64,000 nt of DNA, taken from assembly GCA_000004985.1 (NCBI GenBank), contig GG738903.1. One strand, 5' to 3'. Of the stretch, positions 2,903 through 61,612 are shown in pieces. This DNA comes from Naegleria gruberi (lineage: Eukaryota). Positions within the stretch are counted from its first letter, which is position 1; every line of letters starts with the position of its first letter. The notes under the pieces were generated by a model. That model did no database searches, was not told the origin of the DNA, and was given only the letters and a program-made list of their open reading frames with translations. The position numbers and the translations under genes are program-made.

Positions 2903-3063
2903 GGAAATCCAAATCAGATTTCAAATCTTCCTCCTCATCATATTCATCATCAGCATCAGCATTATTTGTTGTAGTTGTTAAATTTTCATTATCATTCATT
3001 GAATTAAATCTAGTATTACTTAATAAATTTGATTTTTTTAAATATTTCCAAATTTTTTCAATA

Positions 3064-3642: not shown

Positions 3643-4515
3643 TTGTAATAAATGAATAAAAAATTTCTTAGCTCTCCATTTTCTTGAAAATAATCCAACT
3701 AATACTACTAATACATTACCTGTAAATAATTCTGATCCTGTCATTGTTATTAATATTAAACTAATTGGAAATACAGCTTTTTTTTATATTTAAAATTATA
3801 TTAAAATTATATTATTAAAATTATATTAAATTTAAAATTATATTTAAAATTATATTTAAAATTATATTTAACATTATTAAATTAAATTAAAAATTATTAA
3901 ATTAATTAAAAACATACCACCAAAAAAGAATTTTTGTAAACCAGGTATTTGTTTTTCTAATAATTCAGAATTACCAGCAGTTAATAAAGACATTGTACAA
4001 CCAACACCTTTAAATATACCAGCAAATAAAGATAAAATAATCATTTGATCAAATGTTAATTTAGATTTTCTAATACCTTCCATTTTCATTTTATCCATTA
4101 CCATAGTTGGTGTTAAATATAATGGTGGATATGTTGTTACATTGGATTTAATTGGTTCTTGTTCTTGTTTTTTATCATAATGATGATAATGATGATGAAT
4201 TATTATTGTTGTTGTTGCTTGTTGTTGTTTTTGTTGTTGATGATTAATTGTATTAATTGTTATATTATTATTATTATTATTGTTATCTATTATTTCATTA
4301 GGACTTGTAGAAGTAGTAGTACTAATAGTAGTAGTATTAATATTTAAATCATCTAATGGTATATCTATTGGTGTTATATCATGATGAATATGTTTATGAT
4401 TATTCATAGAATGAATAGTATTTGATGATGTATGATAATTATATTCTTGTTGTTGTGTTATTTCTGATGGATGTGTAGAAATATCCCTAAGTAAATTAGT
4501 ACTACTATTCATCAT
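3643..4515 (-). CDS. Putative polytopic membrane protein, possibly a formate/nitrite-transporter-like channel. At least two exons (3877..4515 and 3643..3744), truncated by the gap. The N-terminus carries poly-Asn/Gln/His low-complexity sequence.
   Basis: The hydrophobic segments 'LSLFAGIFKGVGCTMSLLTAGN' and 'TGNVLVVLVGLF' are what suggested the FNT call. The intron contains an (aaattatattt)n microsatellite at ~3785..3880. Confidence 0.3.
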
Positions 4516-5451
4516 TTTAAAAGCCTTATTATAATCCTTCTACTATGTAATTATGTGATTTATGTAACTATGTGATTGAATAATGGGTGATTGAATAATG
4601 ATGAGAGGATCTAACTCTCTCCTGTTTTTTTAAATCAATGATGGTGAGGTGTAAATTGTTCGATATTTGGAGTTTACGGAGAGGAACAATTACAATAAAA
4701 GCCACTTGATCATTTAAAGACCTGTGTACATATTCACAATGACATTTGATGACATGTTATTGTTTTATCGTATTTATACAATTAATTGTTCATTGTGTTG
4801 ATAACACTGCTGAGAATATTAAAATATAACGGATATCATTCAGTGGTCTATTTAAAAAACGACAATTATTTTCCATCAAGTACAATATATGTAATATTGA
4901 ATAATTTACAAGTATTGTATTTAAATGTGGTGTTTAATTGTAATATTAATTTTTAAATAATTAATATTATTTAATTTTAATTTATTGAACATTTACTCAT
5001 CATGAACATTAACTAGACATCTCAATAATAGTACAATAATAGAATATTCATTAATAATAATACTATTAGATCTATTATTAATATACTATTATATTATGTA
5101 TTGTTTTTTTTAACAAGAATGCAATTAAGTGGTTTAACATATTTCCATTATTATATAATTTAGAAATAAATATACAAATAATAAATTGTTGTTCTGAAAA
5201 TGCTGAGATTAATACATTCCGATATAATAATAATAGTAGATGATGATGTTATTGTGCAATGCAAATTATGAATCATGATGATGATAATATTTGTATGATT
5301 TGATGATAATGTAATAATAAATGCATTTTTTAATAAGTGAGAATAAAATCAACATGTCAACTGTTAAACCATCATCATTTAATAATATAATAAAAATTTA
5401 TTTAAATATATAATACACAATGGAGAATTAACAACACAACAACAATAATAT

Positions 5452-8400
5452 TTAATAATTTCCTCTAACTCTAATAATACTAATATTCTTTTCACTTTCA
5501 TCATTATTTTCATCACTTCCATCACTACCATTATTAGTATTATACATATTATTATTACTACCAGTAATATTATTATTATTATTATTTATATTATTATTAT
5601 TTAAAATAATTTGATTATTAAAATGATAATATTTTAAAATATTATTAATTAAATAATCATATGATAATAATCTAATTCTTTGACAAGTAGCAGGTGAATC
5701 AAGTATAAAAATATTAAAATTATTTAAATTATTTCTTCTAAAAGATTTAATAGCATTTCTAATAGCAAATAAAACACAACATGCTAATTGTAAAGGTGGT
5801 TCACCAATTGCTTTAGATCTATATATATTACTATTACATTCTGTATTTTCTTTTAATAATAAATGTATTTTAAATTTTAAAGAAATATCATTAAATGATG
5901 GTATTTTATAATTTGATGGTCCTATTGAAAATAACATTCCACTATTTATCCATTTATTTATAATTATATTATTATTATTTAAATTATTTAAATTATTTAA
6001 ATTATTATTATTATCAATTAAATTATTTAAATTATTTAAATTATTATCACCCCATATTAATTCTTCCATTAAATATAAACCAATACCNNNNNNNNNNNNN
6101 NNNNNNNNNNNNNNNNNNNNNNNNNNNNNNNNNNNNNNNNNNNNNNNNNNNNNNNNNNNNNNNNNNNNNNNNNNNNNNNNNNNNNNNNNNNNNNNNNNNN
6201 NNNNNNNNNNNNNNNNNNNNNNNNNNNNNNNNNNNNNNNNNNNNNNNNNNNNNNNNNNNNNNNNNNNNNNNNNNNNNNNNNNNNNNNNNNNNNNNNNNNN
6301 NNNNNNNNNNNNNNNNNNNNNNNNNNNNNNNNNNNNNNNNNNNNNNNNNNNNNNNNNNNNNNNNNNNNNNNNNNNNNNNNNNNNNNNNNNNNNNNNNNNN
6401 NNNNNNNNNNNNNNNNNNNNNNNNNNNNNNNNNNNNNNNNNNNNNNNNNNNNNNNNNNNNNNNNNNNNNNNNNNNNNNNNNNNNNNNNNNNNNNNNNNNN
6501 NNNNNNNNNNNNNNNNNNNNNNNNNNNNNNNNNNNNNNNNNNNNNNNNNNNNNNNNNNNNNNNNNNNNNNNNNNNNNNNNNNNNNNNNNNNNNNNNNNNN
6601 NNNNNNNNNNNNNNNNNNNNNNNNNNNNNNNNNNNNNNNNNNNNNNNNNNNNNNNNNNNNNNNNNNNNNNNNNNNNNNNNNNNNNNNNNNNNNNNNNNNN
6701 NNNNNNNNNNNNNNNNNNNNNNNNNNNNNNNNNNNNNNNNNNNNNNNNNNNNNNNNNNNNNNNNNNNNNNNNNNNNNNNNNNNNNNNNNNNNNNNNNNNN
6801 NNNNNNNNNNNNNNNNNNNNNNNNNNNNNNNNNNNNNNNNNNNNNNNNNNNNNNNNNNNNNNNNNNNNNNNNNNNNNNNNNNNNNNNNNNNNNNNNNNNN
6901 NNNNNNNNNNNNNNNNNNNNNNNNNNNNNNNNNNNNNNNNNNNNNNNNNNNNNNNNNNNNNNNNNNNNNNNNNNNNNNNNNNNNNNNNNNNNNNNNNNNN
7001 NNNNNNNNNNNNNNNNNNNNNTCTGAATGCTATCTAATACTAATCTAACTGTTTGTTGACTTTTTAATGCTCCAATTGCACATGCACATGCTATTAAAAT
7101 ATTAAATTAAAAATATAAATTAAATATTAAATTAATAAATATTAAATAAATAAAATTTAAAAAAAAACCTACCTAAAACAGAAGCTCTTGTTTCTTTACC
7201 ACCAAAACCACCACCTATTTTTTGTGGAGTTTTAACTTGTATTTGATTCATTGATAAATTTAAAGCTTTTGAAACTAATTGTTGAGTTGTTGAAATTGAT
7301 TGAGTTGATGAATAAATAGTCCATCCACTCTTTTCAATAAAATTATTAGATTCAGGTATTACTAAACATGATTGTGTTTCTAAATAAAAATGTTCTTGTC
7401 CACCAATATAACAATCACCTTCTATATATTCATATTCATTTTCTATTTTAGTATTTTTAATCATTTCTTTAAATTCAGAAAATGAAATATTTGAACTTTG
7501 TAAATGTCTATATTGATCATTAAAAAATGAATTACTATTAATAGCATCATCTATATTTAGTATAGGTTTACTATTTTCAAATGGTTGATATTTAATAATT
7601 ACTTTTTTAGATGCTTCTCTTGCTTGATTTAAAGTATTTGCTAAAATTAAACCAATTAATTGTCCACATGAAGTTGATTCACTACTTTTAAATACTTCTT
7701 CTTCATTTGGTATTACAATACCAATATTATTATTTGGTACATCTTTATAATTTACAAAATATTTAACACCTTCCATTTCAAGTGCTTTACTTTCATCAAT
7801 TTCAATAATTTTAGCATAAGGTTGTGTTGTAAATATAGGATAGGCTTGTAATTCATTTTCTAAATGTGGAATATCATCTAAATATTGTGATTTTCCTTCT
7901 ACTGATTTTTTACCATATATATCAACATGATTTTTACCAATAGTATTTAATTCTTTAACTAAATTTAAATCAATTATATTTGATTTTAATTTTAAATCTT
8001 GAATATATTGTCCAAATTCATATTTATCTATTTTAGGTAAGTAATGATATTCACTTTGAATACTTTCTTCTTCTTTTGTAATATTTAAACAATTTAATTG
8101 TTTTTTAACATGTGTAAAAAATTTAATTAAAAAACTTTGTGATAATGTCATTCTATATAAGGATTGACCACCTGGTGTATTTTCATTTAAATTTAATTTT
8201 TCATTTAATAATTTAATTGAATTTTCTAAAATTAAATTATAATTTTCAATAAAATTCTTTCCAATTAAATATTCATTTAAATAATTTAAATAAATTACCA
8301 TAAATGACATTCCACCAAATGAAATTGAACAATCTTCAATTATATTATTATTATTTAATTTAATTGTCATACATGAATTAACAATTGCAATATCATCTTC

Positions 8401-9760
8401 TTTTCTTTTAGATTGTTTAAATGCTTTACAATAAATATTATTATCAGTTACTATATTTGGAATTATTACATTCAATAATATTTCAGTAGGTAATATATTT
8501 AATTTTCTATATCCAATATATAAATCTCTAATTGAAATATTTCTAATTTCATTTGTTTTAATATTTAATAAATTTAATTTAGCATTTAAAGATTGCCAAA
8601 TTGGGACAAGATCTGAAATTGGTGAACCTGTCATTATATTACCACCAATAGATGCAACATTTCTAATTGGAGTAGATGCAAACCATTTACATTGATCTAA
8701 AATTGTTTTAATTTTTCTATTTTTAAATTCTAAATTACTTTCCATAAATGTATTTAAATATTCCATTAATTTTTGTATAGTAATACTTGAACCAATTAAT
8801 AATTCATTAGAATTTTCATTTAATTGTAAATTTAACATTTCATTAATATTTATTAATGATATAAAATGTGAATATTCTAAATTACGATGTTTAATTTCCA
8901 AACTAACTTCTGTATTTCCAATTATGTATTTAGGAATTATATTTTTAGAATTTAAATTTAATATTATATTTTTTAATTCATTTAAATTAATTGGTCTATA
9001 CCATTCAATATTATCATCTTTATATGATAAATATTTAAATTTATAATTTCTTAATTCAAATGGAAATAAATATTCTTTTTCATATTTAATTTCATTTATA
9101 TTATTATTAATATTATTATTAGTAATAGTATTATCATCATTGGATGGAGTTGGTTCAGTTGTTTTATTTTTAACTTTACAACAACCACCTTCTTTATTAC
9201 AATTACCACATCCATTACCATAAATAGAAGTATTATTATTAGTATCATTTATATTATCATTTAAATCATGATTATATTCATCAGATAAAGATATAGCCAT
9301 ATCTAAAATAGATCTATAACCAGTACATCTACATAAATTACCATCTAAAGATAATTCAATTTGTTTAATTGTAGGCTTTGAATAATTTCTTAATAAGGAA
9401 TATAAACTCATAATAATACCAGGTGTACAAAAACCACATTGTAAAGCATTAAATTAAACAACTTTACTTTTTAATAAAGTTAAAATTGAATCTTGTTTAA
9501 TACCTTCTATAGTAATAATAGAACATCCATCTAAATGTATTAATGGATATAAACAGGCATTAATAGAATAATTAATAATCTTATTTTGTAATGTATCATA
9601 TTTAGATAACATTACAATACAACTACCACATCCACCTTCTGAACAACCTATTTTAGTACCTGTTAATTTTAAATATTCTCTCAAATATTCTGCTAAATTT
9701 AATTTAATTAATAAATTATTTAATTTTAATTCAATACGTTCACCATTAACATAAAATAAT
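5452..9760 (-). CDS. xdh: Xanthine dehydrogenase/oxidase (molybdenum hydroxylase). The N-terminal 2Fe-2S region is 9454..9760, the FAD and Mo-cofactor core is 7132..9453, and the C-terminal segment is 5452..6069. The middle is interrupted by assembly gap 6088..7021.
   Basis: N-terminal 2Fe-2S motif 'VNGERIELK...LTGTKIGCSEGGCGSC'. Second 2Fe-2S and FAD region 'CGFCTPGIIMSLYSLLRN...GNLCRCTGYRSI'. C-terminal 'AIGEPPLQLACCVLFAIRNAI' matches the conserved XDH C-terminus. Asn-rich insertions are present. Confidence 0.8.
6088..7021. other. assembly gap (run of N)
   Basis: N characters in the sequence. Confidence 1.
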
Positions 9761-10362
9761 ATTTACTATTATTATTATTTGTATTATTATTTTCAAGTTG
9801 AACTTGATCATCATTAAAATTGAAAGTTAATGATGCTGATGATGATTTAATATCATTATTATTGATTATCATTCTCAAGTTGTTGATTTTTAAATGATGA
9901 TGGCGTTGAAGATTTGCGATTAATTGGAGAGAAAAAGTTACAGTAGTGTTGAGTTATTGTTTTTTTTCAACAGAGAACACGTGTGGTGGAGAGGCTCAAT
10001 ATTGTTGAATGGTTCATGGATTCTGAAATTGAGCGGAGCGGGTAGATCACAAACCATATTTGGCCGATCTATAGATATTTTTGCTCAACGTTTCCATTTC
10101 GGTAACACAAGGTTCATGGAATGAAAACACTTATTATCAAATTTATTATTAAAATCGTGGTTGAGAAGAATTGTAGTAAATCTTCCCTTAATAAATGCAG
10201 AGGTGAACCCATGTCTAAATTACCTGCTATTGGAGTTCAGGGATTAGACAAAAACTCGTAGTAGTTGTACATTATTGTAAAAGTATTTGAAACTGATTCG
10301 TACAACTGATCATGAACATGTATTGAACTTGTTGTTCCACATCAATTATTATAATAAAAAAA

Positions 10363-16439: not shown

Positions 16440-17180
16440 TGGGTTTGTGTTTTGTGATGCGATTTTATTAATGGGTGTGATGACCATCACAAATAACAGG
16501 CCGATAGGACGTATGTGTTGGAAGCTGTTAAACAACGTGGAAATGCGCTTGAATATGTAGACGAATCATTTAAATAAAGCCGATAGAGAAATTGTGTTGG
16601 AAGCTGTTAAACAAAATGGATGAGCACTTGAATATGTTGATTCATCATTTAAAAAAGATAGAGAATTTGTATTGGAAGCTGTAAAACATAATGGATGAGC
16701 ACTTTAATATGTTGATTCATCATTGAAAAAAGATAGAGAAATTGTATTGGAAGCTGTTAAACATAATGGATCAGCACTTAAATATGCTGATTCATTATTG
16801 AAAAGAGATAGAGAAATTGTATTGGAATCTGTTAAACATAATGGATCAGCACTTAAATATGTTGATTCTTCATTGAAAAAAGATAGAGAAATTGTATTGG
16901 AATCTGTTAAACAAAATGGATCAGCACTTCAATATGCTGATTTATTATTGAAAAAAGATAGAGAAATTGTATTGGAAGCTGTTAAACAAGATGGATTGGC
17001 ACTTGAATATGCTTATTTTCAAAATGACAGAGAAATTGTATTGGAATCTGTTAAACAAAATGGATCAGCACTTGTATATGCTGATTCATTATTTAAAAGA
17101 GATAGAGAAATTGTATTGGAAGCTGTTAAACAACATGAATTGGCACTTGAATATGCTGATTCATCTTTACAAAGAGATAT
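16440..17180 (+). repeat. Tandem array of about seven 102-bp (34-aa) DUF4116-like repeats. The 5'-most copies (16440..16720) carry in-frame TGA and TAA stops and a frameshift.
   Basis: Repeats read '...DREIVLE(A/S)VK(H/Q)NGSAL(K/Q/E)YADSLLKK'. Copies are near-identical at the nucleotide level. The upstream copies read 'ggatgagcac' where the intact copies read 'ggatcagcac'. Confidence 0.8.
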
Positions 17181-18981
17181 CATTTTTATATATTCACTTG
17201 TTAAATTGAACAAAGAAAATACAAGAAGCTTCTCACCCTCTATAACCAAAACCATTGAAGAAGCCAACATTAATCTTCAGAGAAAGCTGTCAAGCAATAT
17301 AATTGAACAGCAATACTCCAAAATATTTATGGATGAAAAGGATTTATATTATGCTATTGAATTAACAAGTCTCTTTAATCCAACACCAAAAGGTACAATA
17401 TTCAATTTCAATTCTATCTATACACCAATATTTGTTGAAAAGTTGATTATTTTCCAAATATTGAAACGAATGAACCATTCAGAATTATCCACTGAAACTC
17501 TTCTTTCAGCCAACTATTATTTATTTTGTTTCAGATTGGACAAATTTCTTGAAGATAATCCTTCTCAATCAACAAGAATGAAAGATTTGAAGAATATTGT
17601 GGAACAAGTTGCAACAAATTTTGAAACATTATTTTATACAAAACAGGAAATTAATGAAATTATGATTTTTTCCAACAAGTGGTTTGAAAATGAGCAAACA
17701 TTTGAGAATTACAAACAAATAGTGTGTAAATATAACGAGGTGAGAGGAGATTTATCAAAAGTATTCAAAGCTCTCAATTATTTCTATAATTATTTCAAAT
17801 ATAATTATGATTTCATTTCAGTATTAGGATATGGAGGTGAAGGTGTTGCATTTAAAGTATTTCATAAAAGTAGTAAATCATTAAGGGCATTAAAATTAAA
17901 ATATGACCCAGAGGAATCTGAAGAATCAACAAAAGAAACCATTAATTTATTGAAAAGAACAGATATTGAAGGAAAGATCAAATGTTTTGATTGTGAAATT
18001 ATTCAAAATCATTTATATTCAGTGATGGAACTTGGAGAGGAATCATTATCAAATTATATTTATAGAAATAATCAAGATGGAATTTATAGAAATGGATTCA
18101 TTAAGAAGGAAAAGTTGATTGAAATTCTTGAAATATTTATCAAAGTATTAAACTCAGTCAAATCAATTCATGATCACAATATTTTACACAGAGATTTAGA
18201 TCCTCAAAATATTGTCAAAGTTCAAGATTTATACAAAATAATTGATTTTGAAACATCAAGAGTTATCAAGACAGGTAATTCAATTACAATTGCTCGTGGA
18301 AAGTTTGCATACATGTCTCCTGAAGTTTCACATGATAATTATTCTGATGATTTATTGAAAAGTGGTAATGATGAAAAGCTTGCTCACAATGTTGGACAAA
18401 TTACCATTTCATGTGATATATTCTCTTTGGGATGTATTTTATTGAAATTATTGACAAATTGTCCATTACAATTATGTTCAACATTTGTTAATGATTCAGC
18501 CATCTCTAAATATAATGATAATTATCCATATTTTAGTGGGCATGGAAAATATTTCTATACAGTTGTAACAAATACTGAGGGAGAAATGAAATTACATTAT
18601 GCAATTGAAAAACTAATCAATGAAACCATTAATCCAGATTTAGGAGTGAACAGCATATTAATTAGAAGCATTATTAGCATGATTCAAAGAGAGTCATCAA
18701 AAAGATTAGATTGTTATTCTCACAAGTTAACAATTGAGAATATTTTGAAATTTTTGAAAGATGAAATCAAAGATATCACTTTGAATATTGAAAAACAAGT
18801 TGGCGAATTGAAGAAAATCTCACCATTAAGAAGTTACTCTCAACTTGCAGAGGAAGTTGATAAACTTGCAGAGGAAAACACCAACCTATATAAACTTTTG
18901 GATGAAAACACCAGGGAAAATAGCAACCTATTAGAAAGAATTAAAATGTTGGAAGAAGAAATAAGAAAACTCAAACAATAA
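16723..18981 (+). CDS. Protein kinase with an N-terminal array of DUF4116-like 34-aa repeats and a C-terminal coiled-coil. The true start is uncertain: no in-frame ATG for ~200 codons, and the ORF-track start is a TTG.
   Basis: Kinase motifs 'GYGGEGVAFKV', 'LHRDLDPQNIV', 'DFETSRV' and 'YMSPEV'. Terminal heptad-like 'LAEEVDKLAEENTNLYKLLDENTRENSNLLERIKMLEEEIRKLKQ'. Confidence 0.7.
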   Translation: MKKDREIVLEAVKHNGSALKYADSLLKRDREIVLESVKHNGSALKYVDSSLKKDREIVLESVKQNGSALQYADLLLKKDREIVLEAVKQDGLALEYAYFQNDREIVLESVKQNGSALVYADSLFKRDREIVLEAVKQHELALEYADSSLQRDIIFIYSLVKLNKENTRSFSPSITKTIEEANINLQRKLSSNIIEQQYSKIFMDEKDLYYAIELTSLFNPTPKGTIFNFNSIYTPIFVEKLIIFQILKRMNHSELSTETLLSANYYLFCFRLDKFLEDNPSQSTRMKDLKNIVEQVATNFETLFYTKQEINEIMIFSNKWFENEQTFENYKQIVCKYNEVRGDLSKVFKALNYFYNYFKYNYDFISVLGYGGEGVAFKVFHKSSKSLRALKLKYDPEESEESTKETINLLKRTDIEGKIKCFDCEIIQNHLYSVMELGEESLSNYIYRNNQDGIYRNGFIKKEKLIEILEIFIKVLNSVKSIHDHNILHRDLDPQNIVKVQDLYKIIDFETSRVIKTGNSITIARGKFAYMSPEVSHDNYSDDLLKSGNDEKLAHNVGQITISCDIFSLGCILLKLLTNCPLQLCSTFVNDSAISKYNDNYPYFSGHGKYFYTVVTNTEGEMKLHYAIEKLINETINPDLGVNSILIRSIISMIQRESSKRLDCYSHKLTIENILKFLKDEIKDITLNIEKQVGELKKISPLRSYSQLAEEVDKLAEENTNLYKLLDENTRENSNLLERIKMLEEEIRKLKQ

Positions 18982-19401
18982 ACTCCCAACACACAAAATG
19001 TAAGTTCCACAAACAACTATGCGAAATGAAATATATTGATTTCAAACTGGGCCATTAGAACTTGAATAGTTTGTTCACTTGAAAGGTTAAATTGAAATAA
19101 ATCATTTCCCTACGTGATTTCTCTTGTAATGGTTAACTTGTGAGAATAACAATCCAATCTTTTTGAGTGGCATTTGGGGAAATTTCCCATGTTTGTTGCA
19201 TTCAAATAACATTGTATTGAGAACATCCCTTTCGTGATAATCGTTATTGGTACAATTCGTGAAAGATCAGTAAGTGTTTCAGTTTCGAATAATGATTTAT
19301 TTCAGCCAACGAAACAACATAAACCAAAACCGAAACATTTCTCTGCAAGCAGAAATTCCACTTTTTTCTTTCACTTGTTTTTCCACCTGCAGTGACAAAT
19401 G

Positions 19402-26691: not shown

Positions 26692-26772
26692 TGCAGAAGG
26701 TGGGATTTGAACCCACGAAGCTTGCGCAGTAGAACTTGAGTCTACCCCCTTTGACCACTCGGGAACCCCTGC
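26692..26772 (-). tRNA. tRNA-Leu (anticodon CAA), type II with a long variable arm.
   Basis: Hand-folded cloverleaf with 7-bp acceptor, 3-bp D-stem, 12-nt variable arm and 5-bp T-stem. Anticodon loop is CT-CAA-GT; T-loop contains GGTTCAAATCC. Confidence 0.8.
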
Positions 26773-31097: not shown

Positions 31098-32046
31098 ATG
31101 GCCACTCTCCAATCTATCAACAAGGATCTTTCTAGAAGAATTGAAAATAAGAGTAATACATTTTGGAAAAGCCTTTTATTAGATGAATTCGGAATGAATA
31201 ATCAATTTATTAAATTACTTGATGAGCAAGAGGAGAATGATCTGAAGAGAAAGGCACTAGTGTTGAGAAAGTTGGCAAGGCGATTTATTAATTATCCTAC
31301 ATTGTACAAAGAAGAAATTGTTGATGACTGTAGAGTTTGTATTATTGGTCCTGTTGGTAATGGTAAATCTTCTTTAATAGAGCAATTTGTTTATGGTAAA
31401 TTCCCACAGGTTACAGATCCAACACTGGAAGATACTTATAGAAAGCAGGTGAAAGTGGATGGATTTGTACATTCCTTGGTTGTTTTGGATACAGGTAAGT
31501 AGGAATATTATTATTATCAATTAATTAGAACACACTATCTTAGCTGGATTAGATACATATATTGCAATGAGAGATGGTTTTATTAGAACACATGATTGTT
31601 TTGTAATTACTGCAAGTTTGGACACTACTCCAACTAAATGTGCAACATATTATGAGGAACTTTTGGATCAAATAACATTAATTAAGGGTTTAGATCATGA
31701 TGGATTTTATTTTCCTATTGTGTTTGTTGTCAACAAATCAGACTTACAACAAGAGGAAAGAGAGTCAACATTTGATGAATGGAAAAATTATTTCAATTCG
31801 TTTATTGAACGATTTAAATTTATGAATTATGATATTATTGAAACAAGTGCCAAATCAAATATTAATGTTTCAAAGGTATTTGAATTGATTATTAGAATGT
31901 TTATTCATTTCCCTTTTCCACATGTACATTTATTTCAAGAGGTAATCAATTTAGATATTAATGTATTCAAGCAAATTAAGAAAAATAAGATTCATGGGAA
32001 AGAACGAAATAAGAAAAATTATAATGAGAAATGTTTATTACAATAA
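31098..32046 (+). CDS. Ras-superfamily small GTPase, divergent. Two exons: 31098..31494 and 31544..32046. The intron is 31495..31543 (49 nt, GTAAGT..TAG).
   Basis: G1 'GPVGNGKSS'. Switch region 'DPTLEDTYRKQV'. G3 'LDTAGLDTYIAMRDGFIRT' is reconstituted across the intron in phase 1. G4 'VVNKSD' and G5 'ETSAKS' are present. Confidence 0.8.
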
Positions 32047-39974: not shown

Positions 39975-40899
39975 TTAAACATTGTAATCAAAATGAATTG
40001 GATGTTCATCTCCATCACTTGCAGCATTAATTACAGTAACACCATTTTGTATCTTTTCATATCCATAACCCATGTGGACATGACCAAAACAATTTACCTT
40101 TAAATCTTTCAATTCATTCATTCTGGTCATCAATGAAGGACTTCCATATTTCAAAATTCCATCTAAATGACCCTTTGGTGGTGTATGGGTCACTAGAATA
40201 TTTGTATCTGGATCAATAGTAGCAAAAATCTCTGCAAGCTTTTCCTCACTTCTATAAAAATAATCATTGTCGAATTGACACATGTATTCCTTCTTTTCTC
40301 CAGGTAAATCTGACATATTTGGAATATATGGAGTTCCATAAATTTTAACACCTTCAATTACAACACTGCTATTTTCAAGATAAATAGCATTAGAAAATAA
40401 TTCTTGAATCTTTTCCTTTCCAAGTTTAGAAATATCCACTTCATGATTACCTAATTACAATCATTTCAATAATGTTACAAAATATTTAAATCAAATTATT
40501 AAACAAATATTAAACAAACATACCACAAATAACAATCTTGTGTTTGTAAGGAAGTGTTCCAACCCATTGATTAAACTTTTCAATATCCTCCAATTTTCCC
40601 TCATCAGTCATATCACCACAATGAATAAATACATCACCCTCTGGTAATTGCAGCATATCATGTTTGTTGTGTGTATCACTTATAATTACAAATTTTAATA
40701 CCTTTTTTCCTTCAGAGGTAGGTTGTGGATGAACAATTTCCCATTCAATCTTTTTTGGAGCCTTGATCGCTTCTTGTTCTCTTCGGGATGAGAGTTTCTT
40801 CATCAATTCATCGGAATTAGATGTTGTAGATGATGAAAGTATTTTGGTTGTAGGAGCTTTAACAGCAATGAATGAAGTAGGTGGAGGTGGTGGAGGCAT
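39975..40899 (-). CDS. Calcineurin-like metallophosphoesterase. Two exons: 40524..40899 and 39975..40450. The intron is 40451..40523 (73 nt, GTATGT..TAG).
   Basis: Motifs 'VIISDTHN', 'IHCGDMTDEG', 'ICG|NHE' reconstituted across the intron, 'VTHTPPKG' and 'FGHVHMGYG'. N-terminal 'MPPPPPP'. Confidence 0.75.
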
Positions 40900-41049: not shown

Positions 41050-43413
41050 TTACAATATGATATCTATTGCACTCTCTTCTTTTAGTGAAATGTATTTTGG
41101 AATCAGTTTTTGCATTTCTTTTTCTAGTTCTGTTGTGAATTCTCTATTGTTTTTCAGCTCGTTTGAAGCAAATTTGAGAGTATATGGTATTTCCAATACC
41201 GCAGCAGTTACAATCTGCTTATCGTTTCTCAATTCCTCTGAGGCAAACTTGAGAGCATTTCCATTTTTAGAGATGGCTGCTAGTACTACTTGCCTATCAT
41301 TTTTCAGTTCCTCTGAGACATACTCGAGGTTTAATCCATTTTGTTGTACTTTTTGTAATGCTAATTCTCTATTATCTATTATTGATAGTGGTTGAGAGGA
41401 AAATACAAATGGTAAAATATAAGTAAATGGTTTTTTGAAAATGAGAATGTCGCCATCTTGTTTCAGTTCTTCAGATGCAAATCTAAAGGAAGAGCCATTG
41501 TTTTGAACTGCCTTCATAACAACCTCTTTGTCATTTCTCAATCTATCCGATGCATATTCAAGAACAATTCCATCCAGTTGAACTGCAGCTAGAACAATAT
41601 CCCTATCGTCCCTTAGTTCTTCTGTGCAGTGTTGTAAAGCTATTGGATTATTTTTAACTGCTTCCATAGCAATAATCTTGTTTCCTTTAAAAGATGTTCC
41701 ACAAAATTTAAGAGAATTTCCATTTTTTCTAATGGCCAAGCTAACTATTTCTAAATCATTCCTTAAAGCCTTACATGCATACCCAAGATTGTTACCGTCT
41801 CTTTTAATAGCTTCTGTAACAATATGACGATCTTTCTTCAATTCCTCAGATGCATAACTAAATGATCCACCATCGGTATTCATTGCCTCTATTATTACAT
41901 CCTTATCATTTCTCAAATTTTCACATGAATAATATAGAGCATTACCATAATTCTTCACTGCTTTCAAGACCATTTCCTTATCATTGTTGAAATGAGGAAT
42001 GCAACATAGTGCTTGTCCTTTTAATTCCATTATTTTTAACATGAATTCTCTATTATTCTTCAATTCTTCAGAGGTCAGTGATAGATTTTTAATTGCATCC
42101 TGAGGTTCACTCATCAATGCAACTTGATAAATGATTTGCTGATCATTCAAAAGTTTAGTAGAGGCATACATAATAGCGTTTGAATTTTGAGTAATAGCCT
42201 CCATTACAATTTCAAAATCATTTCTAAAAGAGAGTGCATATTCAAGAGACATGCCATTTTGTTTTACACACCCTAAAACAAGTTCTTTCTCTATCAAAAA
42301 GTCCTCTGGTGATACAAATTGAAGATTGAGGCCATTCTTTTCACATACATACGAAACAACACTCTTACTATTTTTAAATGGGTGTTTTAAATTTTGAAAA
42401 CAATCAACCAAGCTAGTAACTTTGCCATTCAAATTATCAAACATCACCTGAAATATATTTTCAATAGAATATCTATTGTCTTCGTGAATACATGTCATTC
42501 CTTTACATAAGTCCTTAATTACAATCCATGAAGAAGGATCATTCTCAAATTCGCTAATAGTGGTAGTAGTATTAGTAATAATATTTTGGAATAATGTTTC
42601 GATATCATTCCACAATTCTTCTTGTTGATATTTTAATTGTAAGTGAAATCGATCTAGAAATAGAAATGATAGAATAGTAATACCCAGACTAAAAATATCA
42701 CATTTGCAGGAACATTTTCCATTAAGGATTTCTGGAGCAATAAACCCAATTGTACCAGCAAAACCTGTAGCAGAAGAGTAACAGGAGCTAGTACAATCAT
42801 CAACCAATTGCTCATTATTTTCCTCATTTAACAATAACATATCATCTAAATTATTTTCTGCCATTGTGGCACATCCTAAATCTCCCAACACTATCATTCC
42901 CTCCTCACTCATAAAAATATTTTCCGGTTTAACATCTCTGTGAATGATATGATTCAGTGATAGGGATTGCAAAGCTCCACAACACTGCACAATGATTTGT
43001 AATACCATTAAAATTGAAACTCTTTCCAAGTTTTTTCTCACATCACGCAAATTATTTCCTCTAAATTTAGATATAATAACATATTCTCGTAAGGTTATAG
43101 AGGCTTCATCATCATCATTATAATTATTAAAAGTTTTCATCGATAAAACATTGGCATGATTTGTGTGTTTATACTTTTGCAAATACTCGCTTCTGGTTTC
43201 TCCAGTCTCAAGTAAACCTGAATCATCATGAATAATTTTAAAAACCATCAATGATTGATCGCTCATCTTTCTACACTTGTAAACCCATGTTGTTGGATTT
43301 CGGTAAATTTCTGCTATGGGAAAATAGTATTCACCTTGAAATTCAAAACTTGTTCCATTGTTGTTATTATGGAAAAGAAGCGAAGAAATGGTGGACTGAA
43401 GAGATTTGGTCAT
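41050..43413 (-). CDS. Protein kinase (N-terminal) followed by about 12 DUF4116-like repeats. The domain order is inverted relative to the 16723 gene.
   Basis: Kinase motifs 'HRDVKPENIF', 'LGDLGCA' and 'GFIAPEIL'. Repeats such as 'VVLAAISKNGNALKFASEELRNDKQIV'. Confidence 0.7.
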   Translation of the reverse strand: MTKSLQSTISSLLFHNNNNGTSFEFQGEYYFPIAEIYRNPTTWVYKCRKMSDQSLMVFKIIHDDSGLLETGETRSEYLQKYKHTNHANVLSMKTFNNYNDDDEASITLREYVIISKFRGNNLRDVRKNLERVSILMVLQIIVQCCGALQSLSLNHIIHRDVKPENIFMSEEGMIVLGDLGCATMAENNLDDMLLLNEENNEQLVDDCTSSCYSSATGFAGTIGFIAPEILNGKCSCKCDIFSLGITILSFLFLDRFHLQLKYQQEELWNDIETLFQNIITNTTTTISEFENDPSSWIVIKDLCKGMTCIHEDNRYSIENIFQVMFDNLNGKVTSLVDCFQNLKHPFKNSKSVVSYVCEKNGLNLQFVSPEDFLIEKELVLGCVKQNGMSLEYALSFRNDFEIVMEAITQNSNAIMYASTKLLNDQQIIYQVALMSEPQDAIKNLSLTSEELKNNREFMLKIMELKGQALCCIPHFNNDKEMVLKAVKNYGNALYYSCENLRNDKDVIIEAMNTDGGSFSYASEELKKDRHIVTEAIKRDGNNLGYACKALRNDLEIVSLAIRKNGNSLKFCGTSFKGNKIIAMEAVKNNPIALQHCTEELRDDRDIVLAAVQLDGIVLEYASDRLRNDKEVVMKAVQNNGSSFRFASEELKQDGDILIFKKPFTYILPFVFSSQPLSIIDNRELALQKVQQNGLNLEYVSEELKNDRQVVLAAISKNGNALKFASEELRNDKQIVTAAVLEIPYTLKFASNELKNNREFTTELEKEMQKLIPKYISLKEESAIDIIL

Positions 43414-43757: not shown

Positions 43758-45311
43758 ATGTTCAAGTTTAAACGAAACAATTCTTCGACTAAACTTGAGG
43801 ATATCCACTTGATTTATGAGTTTCCTTTGGAGGCTATATTCGATGTTCCCGAAGCCAAGGAAGAATTTCGTGCCTATCTAAAGAGGGAACACAATGAAGA
43901 ACCTCTTTTGTTTTATGAGGAAGTTGAAGATTTTAAACGACTTAAATTTGAAGAGAATAAGACAAAGAAGGCATTATTCATACTAAAGACTTATGTCATG
44001 CCGAACAGCAGTCATGAAATTAATATATCATCACAATATAGACAGAATATCGTGTTAGGATTTGAAAAATCAGGTCAACTGACTTCAGAAAAGAATATGT
44101 TGGTTGATGAAACTATTTTTGATGATTCACAAAGTGCTATTTTCTATAATTTGAAGAATGACACTTATCCTAGGTTTACCAAATCTGTTCAATTTAACAA
44201 TTTCCTTAAACAAAAGGATGAAGCATTTATTACATCAATTTCTGTACTGAAAAACACAAAATATATGGAGTATATTCCAAAATTTGATGGATTGGTTTGT
44301 GATAGAGATATTCAATTCTTTTCATTCATGGCTTTTAATGATGATGAGGAAGTTTGGGATGAAATTAAAGTTGGAGCAAGTGGTAGAAGAGCTTGTTATC
44401 AATCCAAAAAGGAATTCAACATTGATGAAAATGAGGAAAAAGCAAATGGTAAACTGTTAAAGCAAGTTTTCATTTTACCATGTTCCAAGGAACAAGCTTT
44501 TAATATGTTTTCTCATACTCAAGTTAGACAGGATATTCTAGATGCAGAGAGTATTAATCAGTTAGATTACATTCCAATATCAAAAACAAATAAGTATGCA
44601 CAATCTATTCTCAAGATTGTTATTCAAATGACAGGTTTAACTTGGGTAATGAAACCTAGACAAGCAGTTGTGGCTGGTACTGTAGTTAAAGATACAAAGA
44701 GAAACTGTATTGCTAATATTATGAAGTCAACCAACTCTGTCCTTCTTCCTGAAAAGAAGTCACATGTTAAAGCGAGAGTACTTTCTTCCAGCTTCTTTGT
44801 AGATTGCTACACCACAACACATCTAAATAAGCTCAAAGATCCACCCCACACAAACCATAGTATGAGTTCTGGAGATTTGAGAAAATCAACCTCATCAGCA
44901 TCATCTACTTCCTCCTTTTCAAGAAAAAGCTCAGTAGCATTTGATGACAGCTTGTCTGATATGAGTACTGAATCATTTGGACCAATTGAAAATGCTTGCA
45001 AAGTAATTTGTGTTTCCTACATTGACTTACAATCAATGCAATCTGATTTTATAAGGAAAAAGTTTTTTAATGCGAAAAACAAGGCAGCCCATACAGTATT
45101 TATGAATTCTGTAAAGGAATTTGGAGCTTTAAATTTCCCTAAACCTAAATTCAGTGAGGGACTATATGACACCTTAGATGCTTTTACTTCACACTATACT
45201 ACTGGTGATAATGACACTGTTATGACCTGGGATTTGGAAGAAGAAGAAGAGGGTAATATGTATCCGTGTTATCCAGCCAACGCTGGATTGAAAGGATTTT
45301 GTCAGATGTGA
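43758..45311 (+). CDS. RGS-domain protein. The last 20 codons and the TGA stop are supplied by the left terminal inverted repeat of an inserted MITE. The inferred original C-terminus is '...WDLEEEEQSLHEIITSQLKI'.
   Basis: RGS-like region 'FRAYLKREHNEEPLLFYEEVEDFK...ALFILKTYVMPNSSHEINISSQ'. Confidence 0.65.
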   Translation: MFKFKRNNSSTKLEDIHLIYEFPLEAIFDVPEAKEEFRAYLKREHNEEPLLFYEEVEDFKRLKFEENKTKKALFILKTYVMPNSSHEINISSQYRQNIVLGFEKSGQLTSEKNMLVDETIFDDSQSAIFYNLKNDTYPRFTKSVQFNNFLKQKDEAFITSISVLKNTKYMEYIPKFDGLVCDRDIQFFSFMAFNDDEEVWDEIKVGASGRRACYQSKKEFNIDENEEKANGKLLKQVFILPCSKEQAFNMFSHTQVRQDILDAESINQLDYIPISKTNKYAQSILKIVIQMTGLTWVMKPRQAVVAGTVVKDTKRNCIANIMKSTNSVLLPEKKSHVKARVLSSSFFVDCYTTTHLNKLKDPPHTNHSMSSGDLRKSTSSASSTSSFSRKSSVAFDDSLSDMSTESFGPIENACKVICVSYIDLQSMQSDFIRKKFFNAKNKAAHTVFMNSVKEFGALNFPKPKFSEGLYDTLDAFTSHYTTGDNDTVMTWDLEEEEEGNMYPCYPANAGLKGFCQM

Positions 45312-45955
45312 GTGGATTCCGTCGACTGCCAGTGGATTTTTATCTGGATAAATCAGATAAATCAAGGAAAAATCTGGATTTAATGGATAAAATTAAAGGG
45401 GGGCGAGTAACCAATCATTACCATCATTAAACTGATTCAAAACTTTCTTATAGCCAATGGAATTCATGGCCAAGATCTTGCAATTTACCATCTTGTGCAT
45501 TTCTTATAATTTCTGCAAAGAAAATAACACTGCACATTCACTCAAACTCTTCTATTAAATCTTGCTTTTTTTCCAACTATTTCCAATTTGAATTATAATC
45601 ATATGATTTATTGTTATTTTTGTTTGATCTCTCTTAATACAATCACTAGATGAATAAATTTGTGATTAACTTCCGATTCTACCAATTCTACCAATTCCAA
45701 TATGTTGACTTGATTCACGTGATGAATTGGATCTGTTGCTTGTAGATATGAGTCTTTCTGTGTTAGTTTGCCAACTGAAATAATAGCAGCTCTTCTGTGT
45801 ACTAAATTGTATTTTGCAGCCAATAAAATCGGAAATATCCATCCATTATCCATTTTATCCTGGCTTTGTCTTGATGGGATCCACTTACAGTGGATCCCAT
45901 CTGACAAAATCCTTTCAATCCAGCGTTGGCTGGATAACACGGATACATATTACCC
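45249..45955. mobile_element. Non-autonomous DNA transposon (MITE), 707 bp, with perfect 60-bp TIRs (45249..45308 and 45896..45955) and an 8-bp target-site duplication AAGAAGAA (45241..45248 and 45956..45963).
   Basis: The TIR 'gagggtaatatgtatccgtgttatccagccaacgctggattgaaaggattttgtcagatg' and its exact reverse complement were read directly. No transposase ORF is present inside. Removing the element and one TSD copy restores an in-frame continuation of the RGS gene to a TAA at 46004..46006. Confidence 0.85.
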
Positions 45956-46275
45956 TCAAGAAGAACAATCGTTACATGAAATAATAACATCACAACTCAA
46001 AATATAAAAATAAATAAGGTATTTCACTACAGTATGAAAATCAACAACAAGACCCTCCAACAATCCATTTCACATGGAGTTGGATTTTTGATTGTTCTCT
46101 TCTCCGATTTGGAACATTGTCAACACTAGCAAGTTGGTTTAGTAAAGATATTTCAATAAAGAAGAGCACTTTGAAATAACGCAAAAACAATTGGTAACAC
46201 TCTATTTTCAATGTCGTAAACAGAAGACTGCTATTTGTCTTTTCAAAATTTGAAAAAAATGTTTAACAAAACCAA

Positions 46276-46878
46276 TTGTTTACTTTGATATTATTCCTAT
46301 TGTTTGCTCAATCAGCTGTTGCCTTGATTGATCCAAATGATTTGAGTGAAATAAAAGAGACCATAATTACCCTTTCCAACAGTTCTAACATTACATGTAG
46401 TACATGTTCTGAACAATTACTTCCATTCTTGAATGACATGTGTTGGAAGTATAACACCAATACTAGAGAGCAAATTGTTTCATTCTTGTCTATCTCTATT
46501 GATAAAGAACCTAACCAAAAATTGTTGAATGAGGTAATTGCTAGTGTTGCTCCAACCATTGTTGAACTTAAAACAGCTTCTCAGACTATGGAAGAAAAGA
46601 AGACTGATCTACTTTCTGGATGGTTATCAACTTATGGATTCTACCCAAAAGGAAATGGTCAACCAATTGAGAGAGTTATTGGGTTTATTGTTACCAACTG
46701 GGCTTCACCTTCAACCACCTTACACATTCTTCTAAATGCCAGAAATATTCGTAATTTACTCAATACTAGACCTGCTTCTTCTGAAGTATTAATGTTTTCA
46801 TTGATGAATTACTTGAATAGTTTGAATAGTCTTGCCTACAGTTCTAAACCAGTTTGTTCTAGATTGGAATGTCATTAA
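46276..46878 (+). CDS. Small secreted Cys-containing protein. The ATG at ~46260 is 1 nt out of frame with the signal-peptide ORF.
   Basis: 'LFTLILFLLFAQSAVA' is a signal-like sequence. The ORF-track start is a TTG. The upstream 'atgtttaacaaaaccaattgtttactttga' sits in a different frame. Confidence 0.35.
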   Translation: MFTLILFLLFAQSAVALIDPNDLSEIKETIITLSNSSNITCSTCSEQLLPFLNDMCWKYNTNTREQIVSFLSISIDKEPNQKLLNEVIASVAPTIVELKTASQTMEEKKTDLLSGWLSTYGFYPKGNGQPIERVIGFIVTNWASPSTTLHILLNARNIRNLLNTRPASSEVLMFSLMNYLNSLNSLAYSSKPVCSRLECH

Positions 46879-47974
46879 ATGCGTTTTAACAAATTTGGTA
46901 TTTAATTAAATTGAATTGAACATTACACCTGTCTGAAATTGCTTGTGAAAGTTCTGAATATTCTTATATCTAGAATTGTATTCTCAATTTTTCAGTATTC
47001 GATACCTTATTTAAATTAGATTCTTCCTCACTAAAAACTTTCATATTTCCTCTTTAATATCTTTCAAAGAATCCGAAAGATATCCAAACATCCCTTAACA
47101 AGTAAGATTTGTTGGGCGACGAATTGTATGTAAAGGTGTTGGTTGACCAATAGAAACATCTGTTCCATCCTTGTAGTGATGAAGATTGATTGTCAGCAAT
47201 TTTGTGGAATGATATGTTTTTCTATTTTAAACGGGTTGAAAAAGAGGGATTTTCATTGTAATTGTGATGAACATTGGGTGAACAAGTTATTTTTAAACTC
47301 TAAAAATAAAATACAAAATGCTTTAAATACATCAAACTTTTGCCGTCATCATCACAAATCAACAAGAAAAAACAATTTAATAATACAACAAGAACAATGG
47401 CAAGATCAAAAAATTCAAGAAGAGGAATTAACAGCCACTCTAACAAGTATTGGAAAGCTGAATATCATGGAGCCGGAAGAACAATGACTCGTTCCGTCTT
47501 GGCAAAAACTACCAAGGAATGTACCTTGAGTGGAACCGAATCATTGCCACACAGACATGAATATAGTGATAGATGGGATGCCAGATGGTAAAATATTCAT
47601 CAGAATGTGTATTAATTATCAACATATGATTCTAGTTGAAATTGATACTATTGTTCTTCCTGATTATTTAGTATGAACAGAAATAATGACCATCAACATA
47701 TAACTAATTTGCTAACTTCGAGAAAACTATTAGCATTGAAAAATTGTACAATACAACAACAAGAATAAACCATGGTTGAAATGTCATATAAAAAACCTAG
47801 ATCAGAATTTTTATTAATCGATGTAAGTGAATTGATATATCTTGATATTCATTTTAGTGAGATTGGCATTGAAGGAATTGGAGAAATGAAACAATTAATC
47901 TTGACATACTTTCATAAATTACATGAATTTCAAAGGCGCTGGATATGTTGTATCATTTTAAAAGTAAAAAGGTG

Positions 47975-48045
47975 TAGGAAGACAGGGAATCGAACCCTGA
48001 TCTTAGGAACCACAATCCCATGTTCTACCACTGAACTATCTCCCT
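47975..48045 (-). tRNA. tRNA-His (anticodon GUG).
   Basis: Hand-folded cloverleaf: acceptor AGGGAGA/TCTTCCT, D-arm GTTC-AGTGGTA-GAAC, anticodon arm TGGGA-TTGTGGT-TCCTA, T-arm CAGGG-TTCGATT-CCCTG, discriminator A. G-1 is not encoded, as is normal for eukaryotic tRNA-His. Confidence 0.8.
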
Positions 48046-60000: not shown

Positions 60001-61612
60001 CAAACATTCAAACTAGTGTTCTTGACACCAAAGCAAGAAACTAATTCACAGTTACTTCCATGATATCCTTCAGAGCATGAACAATTGTTAGGAGAAACAC
60101 ATCGACCTTTCGAATAGGAACAAACTTCTGGACTAGTGGCCAAAATATTCGAACATTTAGGAACGTTACAATTGGAACCACCATACATTTCGGTACAGTT
60201 ACAAACTCCAGGTGCTAGACAATTTCCATTTCCTGAACATACGCTTGGAGAATTTGCCAAAACATTTCCACATTTGTGAATGTCACAATTTTGACCTCCC
60301 CAAAAAGTTGAATTCCAACATGAGCAATTATTTGCATAGACACATGTACCAATTCCAGAACAAACACTAGTATCATTAGCCATTATATTATTACATTTAG
60401 GAATTTCACAAAATTCTCCTCCCCAAAGTGAACTATTGAAACAATTACAAATGTCAAAATTCAAACAAACACCTCTTCCAGAACAGACATCTCCACTATA
60501 TTGGGGATAACCGAAACATACAGCTACACATTCATTCATAGTAGCATTGTATACATAACCTCCTGTGCAATAAGGTTCAATTTTTCTAATACGGAGATTA
60601 CCAGTATCTTTTTCAAAGTATTCGAAATATAAATTCTTCACTACTACTTACCAAGAATAAAAATATGACCTTCTGAACTAACATCCACATCATAGGTATT
60701 ATTCATCTTTACCAAATCACTTCCAGGAGTTTTAGCAACGCCTGAAAATAATGAAATTGTAGCTAAATTTTGGGTACCAGTAGTTCCATAAGAAAATTTC
60801 ACAACACGAACAACATGATTTCCTCTGTCAGCAATGTAAAGATCCTTGTTGGGTCCATAAGCAACTCCAGTAGGTGCGTTATACAAGGCATTGAATGCAC
60901 TGCCATCGGCATAACCAGCAGACCCAACACCTAAATAGGAAGTAGCTCCAGAGCCTGTCCTAATTAAACGATGAGTACCTGGTTCAGCAAAAGTCATTTC
61001 AGTACTAGAAAAGGCTGCGACTCCAGCGGATAGAGAACCTTGTACAATAAGTTGCTGAGTAGAGATGAAATTATTAGCTTTCGTATACTTTCTAACTCTG
61101 TAATTCAATGAATCTGAAAAGTAAATATTGCCATTTGGAAGTGAGGTAACATATTTCGGCTGATTTAGGTATGCATTTGTAGGGAGGGTATTCAAATCAT
61201 TGGCAACACCAGAAACTCCACATTTTCCAATAATTGTTTTAATCTGTCCATTGCTTACTTCTCTAATGACATGATTTAAAGTGTCAGCAATCAATAACTT
61301 TCCTTCTGATGTAACACATATACCACCTGGATAATTCAGCATGGCACCTGTAGCTGTAGTATTAGTGTCGTTTCCAGCAATTCCAGTTCCTGCCACGATT
61401 GTTACTTTCAATGTTGTCAAATCTAATCTTTTCACAAGGTGGTTTTTGGAATCTGAAATGAAAAGTTCATTATTATTACCAACAGCAATTCCTTCAGGAG
61501 AGTTGAAACCTTGTAGGTAGATGTGAGTGATGTTGTACAGAGGTGCAATAGAGTTGACTAAACTCAAGTGCAATAGTATTAGAAACAAGACGAAAGTAAT
61601 GAGTCTTGCCAT
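54006..61612 (-). CDS. Probable single receptor-kinase gene encoding signal peptide, NHL-repeat beta-propeller, about 40 tenascin-type EGF repeats, a TM helix and a protein kinase. Proposed exon 1 is 60652..61612 and exon 2 is 54006..60607, with a 44-nt intron at 60608..60651 (GTAAGT..AAG). Alternatively the two ORFs are joined by a 1-nt assembly indel.
   Basis: Exon 1 has signal peptide 'MARLITFVLFLILLHLSLVNS' and NHL units such as 'LYIADRGNHVVRVV'. It ends at '...FILG' followed by a GTAAGT donor. The big ORF begins with no signal peptide ('...DTGNLRIRKIEPYC') and its ORF-track start is a GTG. TM segment 'ALAAAIAVPVAFVVILIIIIVIILLICIVW'. Kinase motifs 'AIKIVK', 'IKHSNLLI', 'SDFGYG' and 'SPEI'. 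Confidence 0.7.

What the first reader, a model, noticed from the sequence alone, without database searches (positions are those of the whole stretch)
45241..45963. Recent MITE insertion that rewrote the C-terminus of the RGS-domain gene
A 707-bp element has perfect 60-bp TIRs and a clean 8-bp TSD (AAGAAGAA). An 8-bp TSD is typical of the hAT superfamily, although 60-bp TIRs are longer than usual for hAT. The element sits in a GAA-repeat (poly-Glu) codon run. The current ORF reads through the left TIR for 20 codons to a TGA. Excising the element and one TSD copy restores a frame-preserved original ending (...EEEEQSLHEIITSQLKI, TAA at 46004..46006). Perfect TIRs imply a very young insertion. 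It may be polymorphic, and an active autonomous partner may exist elsewhere in the genome.
Basis: seen in the sequence. Interest (0 to 1): 0.65.

Follow-up and report, generated by a model that had tools for sequence, protein, structure and literature searches.

The report
Young MITE inside a Naegleria gene
A small, recently moved, non-coding DNA transposon sits in the last few codons of a Naegleria gruberi signalling gene, so the public protein model ends in 20 transposon-encoded residues instead of its conserved tail; this is an ordinary mutation type, but the element family is undescribed.

Summary
A 709-bp element (45249-45957) has perfect 60-bp terminal inverted repeats and is flanked by AAGAAGAA on both sides. 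It lies near the 3' end of the RGS-domain gene of Naegleria gruberi NEG-M. The public protein model (XP_002671667.1) reads through the left repeat for exactly 20 codons to a TGA. Orthologues in three other Naegleria are uninterrupted and keep an LHE[IV] tail motif; in this window that motif lies just downstream of the element.

The element has no coding capacity, and TGGAT motifs are densely clustered at both ends. A second copy exists elsewhere in the genome: another public protein (XP_002680337.1) starts with 28 residues encoded by the element's end. A version of that second gene on another scaffold keeps the conserved upstream sequence, which suggests an insertion polymorphism.

The hAT assignment is not established. 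Because the target is a GAA repeat, the duplication could be 2, 5 or 8 bp, and the repeats are much longer than is usual for hAT. An in-frame GT...AG interval (708 nt) could splice the element out. However, its donor (GTAATA) does not match the local GTAAGT/GTATGT consensus, and local introns are 42-141 nt.

Verdict: a new member of a known kind (MITE), of modest interest.

The parts
43758..45311 (+). RGS-domain gene as publicly modelled (517 aa, XP_002671667.1); the last 20 codons plus the stop lie inside the element
   Evidence: ORF list; Pfam RGS domain E=2.3e-20; 100% identity and coverage to P0001
45241..45248 (.). Left flanking direct repeat AAGAAGAA (putative TSD copy 1), part of the Glu-codon run
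   Evidence: Sequence; flanks printed; repeat lengths of 1, 2, 5 and 8 bp all fit
45249..45957 (.). 709-bp non-autonomous TIR element (MITE)
   Evidence: no Pfam hit for any internal ORF at E<=1; no Rfam family
45249..45308 (+). Left TIR, 60 nt perfect; encodes the 20 new C-terminal residues
45309..45311 (+). TGA stop used by the read-through ORF, at the first position where the two arms diverge
45309..45398 (.). Left subterminal region with clustered TGGAT motifs (ATCTGGATAAA and similar), candidate transposase-binding repeats
   Evidence: 7 TGGAT per terminal 150 bp against 0.55 expected; 0 of 2520 background windows reach 7
45808..45897 (.). Right subterminal region with clustered ATCCA/TGGAT motifs and a 13-nt palindrome (45873-45901)
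45898..45957 (-). Right TIR, 60 nt perfect
45958..45965 (.). Right flanking direct repeat AAGAAGAA (putative TSD copy 2)
45966..46007 (+). Orphaned ancestral C-terminal coding sequence QSLHEIITSQLKI plus TAA (46005-46007); still open and in the pre-insertion frame
   Evidence: LHE[IV] motif conserved in orthologues
45253..45960 (+). Hypothetical in-frame intron (GTAATA...CTCAAG, 708 nt = 3 x 236) that would restore the tail with 3 extra Glu; considered unlikely to be used
   Evidence: frame and product; the donor does not match the local GTAAGT/GTATGT consensus, and local introns are 42-141 nt

Best explanation
A 709-bp miniature inverted-repeat transposable element (a non-autonomous cut-and-paste DNA transposon of an unclassified family) recently inserted into the Glu-codon run 14 codons before the stop of the Naegleria gruberi RGS-domain gene. 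A transposase supplied in trans would bind the 60-bp TIRs and the clustered TGGAT subterminal motifs, and gap repair of its staggered cut would produce the flanking direct repeat (at most 8 bp). On this haplotype, translation most likely runs into the left TIR and stops at a TGA just past it. That replaces the conserved 13-residue tail (QSLHEIITSQLKI) with 20 TIR-encoded residues and leaves the old tail as an untranslated orphan. Shown: the structure, the read-through ORF, the ancestral tail, the lack of coding capacity and the second genomic copy. Inferred: the transposition mechanism, recency, the actual mRNA and protein produced, and possible heterozygosity.
For: Perfect 60-nt TIRs with a defined outer boundary, and flanking AAGAAGAA. 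TIR probes match only these two sites in 64 kb, with 0 of 100 shuffles matching. The window is N. gruberi, and the public model XP_002671667.1 equals the read-through ORF. Orthologous genes in N. fowleri (L001) and an environmental Naegleria (L002) are single uninterrupted ORFs of 1611 and 1632 nt. The orthologues' LHE[IV] motif aligns with the post-element tail and not with the TIR-encoded tail. No internal ORF has a Pfam hit at E<=1, and there is no Rfam family. TGGAT occurs 7 times per terminal 150 bp against 0.55 expected, and 0 of 2520 background windows reach that count. A second copy exists: XP_002680337.1 (P0008) starts with 28 residues identical to the element's right end read outward to its last base. 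Its homologues have about 120-160 more N-terminal residues. XP_002668711.1 (P0010), on another scaffold, is identical at 290 of 290 residues downstream but keeps the conserved upstream ...GYPGTI.
Against: No transcript or protein data were available, so read-through translation is inferred from the ORF and the public ab initio model only. The TSD length, and so the superfamily, is not resolved. Only two copies are documented, and the second only at protein level (84 nt equivalent). No autonomous partner was found. Neither an empty-site nor a spliced form of the RGS protein exists in the public protein collection, so polymorphism at this locus is untested.
Confidence: 0.8

Rival explanations
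1. Nascent transposon-derived intron. The element is removed from the RGS pre-mRNA by the spliceosome using GT at 45253 (inside the left TIR) and AG at 45959-45960 (in the right flank copy). This gives a functional protein with the ancestral tail and three extra Glu, and the public gene model simply missed the intron.
For: The GT...AG interval is 708 nt, a multiple of 3, and yields ...WDLEEEEEEEQSLHEIITSQLKI*. A pyrimidine stretch (TATTACCCTC) precedes the AAG acceptor. As in described introners, one site would come from the element and the other from the duplicated target (PMC11282704). AAG acceptors occur among local introns.
Against: The donor GTAATA lacks the +5 G and +6 T. Donors at ORF junctions in this window are GTAAGT or GTATGT in 7 of 40 candidates, against a 0.86% background, and those introns are 42-141 nt, not 708 nt. 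The median intron is 80 bp in N. lovaniensis (PMC6125883). The donor would be buried in a roughly 60-bp perfect RNA stem. Restoration would not be exact. No spliced form is on public record.
Confidence: 0.08
2. An old, fixed insertion whose TIR-encoded tail is now the normal, possibly functional C-terminus of the N. gruberi protein (exonisation).
For: The only public gene model uses this tail. The TIR is open in the required frame for exactly 20 codons.
Against: The arms show 0 differences in 60 nt. The second copy is identical over all 28 comparable residues. The orphaned tail is still intact and in frame. Three other Naegleria lineages lack the insertion.
Confidence: 0.06
3. Not a mobile element: a local inverted duplication, a foldback structure or an assembly artefact that happens to sit in a GAA repeat.
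For: The flanking repeat could arise trivially in a (GAA)n tract. No other copy is present in the 64-kb window. The TIR is absent from the metagenome and viral collections.
Against: A second copy of the same terminal sequence abuts an unrelated gene on a different scaffold. The subterminal motif architecture is typical of TIR transposons. The boundary is exact, and removing the element restores a conserved protein tail.
Confidence: 0.03

Closest known systems
MITEs (miniature inverted-repeat transposable elements; non-autonomous class II TIR elements)
   Same: It is small (709 bp) and has perfect TIRs and a flanking direct repeat. It has no coding capacity, carries subterminal repeated motifs, is AT-rich inside and is present in more than one copy. 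It is inserted in or next to genes.
   Different: The 60-bp TIRs are at the long end for MITEs. The family, the superfamily and the autonomous partner are unknown. I found no description of MITEs in Naegleria in the searched literature. Published repeat surveys report only coarse classes, and only a small fraction of N. gruberi repeats is classified (PMC12344493, PMC6125883).
hAT-superfamily non-autonomous elements such as maize Ds
   Same: A possible 8-bp target duplication. Termini xAGGG resemble the hAT YARNG motif at 4 of 5 positions. Subterminal short repeats are present, as in Ac/Ds (comparison from general knowledge). Ds insertions in exons are known to be partly spliced out through sites in their ends (general knowledge).
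   Different: The TSD length is not established (2, 5 or 8 bp). The first base is G and not C/T. The 60-bp TIR is several times longer than typical hAT TIRs. No hAT transposase has been linked to the element.
Introner elements (intron-generating MITE-like transposons of Micromonas, Aureococcus, dinoflagellates and fungi; PMC11282704, PMC12130899)
   Same: It is a TIR+TSD element lying inside a coding exon. An in-frame GT...AG interval exists, with one site in the element and the other in the duplicated target.
   Different: The donor does not match the host consensus. The interval is 5-15 times longer than local introns. Excision would not restore the exact sequence. There is no evidence of many genic copies or of splicing. 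Naegleria and Discoba are not mentioned in the introner survey read here.
Euglenid nonconventional introns (MITE-like, end-pairing, non-spliceosomal removal; PMC11282704)
   Same: The host is also in Discoba. The ends pair into a stable stem, and TSD-like repeats sit at the junctions.
   Different: The CAG/CTG signature at +4-6/-8 to -6 is absent if the element boundaries are taken as the junctions (+4-6 is GGT). No such introns are known in Heterolobosea. No RNA data were available.

Membership tests
MITE / non-autonomous TIR DNA transposon | Terminal inverted repeats with a sharp outer boundary | tested here: met
   60/60 nt complementary; the next outward bases do not pair
MITE / non-autonomous TIR DNA transposon | Target-site duplication flanking the TIRs | tested here: inconclusive
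   AAGAAGAA is present on both sides, but it lies in a (GAA)n run, so the length could be 1, 2, 5 or 8 bp and some repeat is expected by chance
MITE / non-autonomous TIR DNA transposon | Small size and no transposase coding capacity | tested here: met
   709 bp; the six longest internal ORFs (<=111 aa) have no Pfam hit at E<=1; the six-frame query finds no transposase-like protein
MITE / non-autonomous TIR DNA transposon | Multiple dispersed copies in the genome | tested here: met
   At least 2 copies: the second is at the XP_002680337.1 locus on a different scaffold. The true copy number is unknown because the assembly is not searchable
MITE / non-autonomous TIR DNA transposon | Unoccupied (empty) homologous site | tested here: met
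   Orthologous genes in N. fowleri, N. lovaniensis and an environmental Naegleria are uninterrupted at this point. No within-species empty site is available for this locus
MITE / non-autonomous TIR DNA transposon | Cognate autonomous element sharing the termini | not testable with these tools
   The N. gruberi assembly is absent from all searchable DNA collections
hAT superfamily | 8-bp TSD | tested here: inconclusive
   8 bp is the maximum that fits; 2 and 5 bp fit equally well. The second copy is known only as protein, so there is no second TSD
hAT superfamily | Short TIRs (about 10-25 bp) beginning YARNG | tested here: not met
   The TIR is 60 bp and begins GAGGG. The family criterion is from general knowledge
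hAT superfamily | hAT transposase (DDE with C-terminal dimerisation domain) in an autonomous relative | not testable with these tools
   No genome access
Introner (intron-generating transposon) | Provides splice signals that match the host's, so that the insertion is spliced | tested here: not met
   The candidate donor GTAATA differs from local GTAAGT/GTATGT (7 of 40 junction donors against a 0.86% background). The interval is 708 nt, and local introns are 42-141 nt. The GT...AG interval is in frame
Introner (intron-generating transposon) | Many near-identical copies annotated or transcript-verified as introns | not testable with these tools
   No genome or RNA-seq access. No spliced protein form is on record
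Euglenid-type nonconventional intron | End pairing with the CAG/CTG signature, and removal as circular RNA | tested here: not met
   The ends pair strongly, but +4 to +6 of the element is GGT and not CAG. RNA removal is not testable

The most novel reading that the evidence does not exclude
The element is removed from the RGS pre-mRNA, either by the spliceosome through its weak GTAATA...AAG sites or by a hairpin-guided, euglenid-like nonconventional excision. That would make it a newly born transposon-derived intron in a heterolobosean, caught at the single-insertion stage and possibly still heterozygous.
Probability: 0.07. Interest if true: 0.7.

Novelty: new member of a known kind. Interest (0 to 1): 0.3.

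Why it matters
There are three practical points. First, the RefSeq/UniProt protein XP_002671667.1 (D2VVY4) has a chimeric, transposon-encoded C-terminus and lacks the conserved LHE[IV] tail. XP_002680337.1 likewise has a transposon-encoded false N-terminus. Both models should be treated with caution in comparative work. Second, identical TIRs and a near-identical second copy suggest that a cut-and-paste transposon family was active very recently in the laboratory reference strain NEG-M, a genome reported to have few classified repeats. The family may therefore be a source of insertion polymorphism and a candidate tool for tagging. Third, the insertion offers a simple natural test of whether Naegleria can splice a transposon out of an exon, which bears on how new introns arise. 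The evidence here points to no.

Tried and rejected
1. The TIR 28-mer and the outer 22-mer were searched in metagenome contigs, and the 28-mer in viral contigs; all gave 0 hits.
2. The look-up of encoding contigs for P0001, P0008 and P0010 found no record, so the N. gruberi assembly is not indexed and no DNA could be obtained for the second copy or its putative empty allele.
4. A stacked four-frame profile was mis-aligned by MAFFT and abandoned.
6. A 40-aa sharp profile returned no candidates and failed its positive control, because P0001 was not collected. That null says nothing about copy number.
7. An exact look-up of four spliced or excised versions of the RGS protein found none in the collection.
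8. Literature searches for Naegleria MITEs, introners and transposons found nothing specific.
9. An alternative donor, GTGAGT at 45308-45313, would remove the TGA, but with either nearby acceptor it does not restore the ancestral frame (worked out by hand). It was rejected.
10. The idea that 'LDIQAPL' in P0008 is a frame-shifted reading of the conserved GYPGTI codons was checked by hand and rejected. It is more likely intronic or flanking sequence, which cannot be tested here.

Full report
WHAT IS THERE. The window comes from Naegleria gruberi. The ORF 43758-45311 is 100% identical over its full length to XP_002671667.1, 'RGS domain-containing protein [Naegleria gruberi strain NEG-M]', and it carries a Pfam RGS domain. 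At its 3' end lies an inverted repeat whose arms, 45249-45308 and 45898-45957, are perfectly complementary over 60 nt. Probes from the repeat match only these two sites in 64 kb, and none of 100 shuffles gave a match. The bases immediately outside the arms do not pair, so the element is 45249-45957 and measures 709 bp. It is flanked by AAGAAGAA at 45241-45248 and 45958-45965.

EFFECT ON THE GENE. The ORF enters the left TIR in frame and is open for exactly the 60 nt of the TIR (EGNMYPCYPANAGLKGFCQM). It stops at TGA 45309-45311, the first position where the two arms differ. Removing the element and one flank copy gives ...MTWDLEEEEQSLHEIITSQLKI*, with TAA at 46005-46007. Orthologues from N. 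fowleri, N. lovaniensis and an environmental Naegleria end ...MTWELEDEEDGTLHEIVSS......MTWELQDEEDDMLHEIVAHNDH and ...WELNAEDELHDIVTT.... In the alignment the LHE[IV] motif lines up with the sequence after the element, while the TIR-encoded tail aligns with nothing. The orthologous genes retrieved as DNA are single uninterrupted ORFs: L001 at 1611 nt and L002 at 1632 nt. The site is therefore unoccupied, and has no intron, in the relatives.

IS IT A TRANSPOSON? The internal ORFs (111 aa or shorter) have no Pfam match at E<=1, and Rfam finds nothing in the element. The termini carry a dense array of TGGAT/ATCCA motifs: 7 in each terminal 150 bp, 1 in the 409-bp interior, and 0.55 expected per 150 bp. 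None of 2520 background windows reaches 7. That is the usual layout of subterminal transposase-binding repeats. The window holds no second copy, and the N. gruberi assembly could not be searched. However, a six-frame query built from the element found XP_002680337.1 (P0008), on a different 665-kb scaffold. Its first 28 residues, MGSTYSGSHLTKSFQSSVGWITRIHITL, are identical to the right end of the element read outward to its last base.

THE SECOND LOCUS. Homologues of P0008 align from about its residue 34 to their residues 120-200, so P0008 lacks about 120-160 N-terminal residues. XP_002668711.1 (P0010), a partial model on a 43.9-kb scaffold of the same assembly, is identical to P0008 at 290 of 290 residues from RDIVNITTG onward. 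It also carries 120 residues of conserved upstream sequence ending ...YGYPGTI, which matches GYPGTIRD in homologues. The simplest reading is two haplotype scaffolds of one locus, one with the element and a truncated model, and one without it. Naegleria is described as mainly a heterozygous diploid (PMC9928731). This remains an inference because no DNA was available for either scaffold. The seven residues LDIQAPL between the element and RDIVN in P0008 match nothing, and they may be intronic sequence.

WHICH SUPERFAMILY? The left flank ends ...GGAAGAAGAAGAA and the right flank begins AAGAAGAACAAT. Direct repeats of 1, 2, 5 and 8 bp all fit, and 8 is only the maximum. Spacing in the orthologues does not discriminate between these lengths. 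The TIR is 60 bp and begins GAGGG; by general knowledge, hAT TIRs are about 10-25 bp and begin YARNG. I therefore leave the element unclassified. If the TSD is 8 bp, it is compatible with hAT, P, Merlin and some MULEs.

COULD IT BE SPLICED OUT? The left TIR contains G|GTAATA (GT at 45253) and the right junction reads TATTACCCTCAAG| (AG at 45959-45960). The interval is 708 nt, which is 3 x 236, and it would give ...WDLEEEEEEEQSLHEIITSQLKI*, that is the ancestral tail plus three Glu. This resembles introners, where the element supplies one splice site and the duplicated target supplies the other (PMC11282704). I derived the local splice consensus from ORF junctions in this window. Seven of 40 candidate donors are GTAAGT or GTATGT, against 0.86% of all GT sites, and those introns are 42-141 nt. 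The median intron in N. lovaniensis is 80 bp (PMC6125883). The candidate donor lacks the +5 G and +6 T, the interval is 5-15 times too long, and the donor would be buried in a roughly 60-bp perfect RNA stem (fold energy -246.8 kcal/mol, z = -16.8). No spliced or empty-site form of the protein is on public record. I rate splicing at about 8%. A euglenid-style nonconventional excision is listed only as a remote possibility.

AGE. There are no differences between the two 60-nt arms. All 28 comparable residues of the second copy are identical. The 13-codon orphan tail is intact and in frame. The insertion is absent from the three other Naegleria orthologue sources compared. All of this points to a recent insertion, but no absolute date can be given.

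VERDICT. This is a genuine, young MITE insertion in the coding 3' end of a gene, from an apparently undescribed Naegleria family with at least two copies. It is a new member of a known kind. The hAT label and polymorphism at this locus remain unproven. The practical consequences are two misleading public protein models and evidence of very recent DNA-transposon activity in the reference strain.

Noticed in passing
not in window: N. gruberi XP_002680337.1 (P0008, 665-kb scaffold) and XP_002668711.1 (P0010, 43.9-kb scaffold): A second copy of the element supplies the false N-terminus of a receptor/cyclase-like gene model. An otherwise identical partial model on another scaffold keeps the conserved upstream 120 residues, which suggests a heterozygous insertion or haplotype scaffolds.
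   Followed up: partly
window 18697-18735 and 19128-19166: A 39-nt inverted repeat, 95% complementary, with arms 392 nt apart. The left arm lies inside the intact 3' coding end of ORF 16708-18978, and there is no clear TSD. It is not a disrupting insertion, and its nature is unknown.
   Followed up: partly
window 2000-10000, with N runs at 3064-3642 and 6088-7021: An extremely AT-rich block (GC 12-21%, against about 32% elsewhere) containing two assembly gaps and low-complexity AT repeats.
   Followed up: no
window 26692-26772 (-) and 47974-48045 (-): tRNA-Leu(CAA) and tRNA-His(GTG) genes. The tRNA-His lies about 2 kb downstream of the RGS gene.
   Followed up: no
window 41050-43413 (-): The divergently oriented neighbour gene encodes a protein kinase domain followed by 11 DUF4116 repeats.
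   Followed up: no
window-wide, e.g. 31495-31543 (+), 60608-60651 (-), 40451-40523 (-), 2551-2623 (-), 1523-1564 (-): Candidate introns joining long ORFs all start GTAAGT or GTATGT and are 42-141 nt long. This gives a usable local splice consensus for N. gruberi.
   Followed up: partly
L001 3001-4611 and 4862-6475 (N. fowleri), compared with window 43758-46878: N. fowleri has two tandem RGS paralogues at the orthologous locus. The N. gruberi window has one RGS gene followed by an unannotatable 200-aa ORF (46276-46878, no Pfam hit).
   Followed up: no
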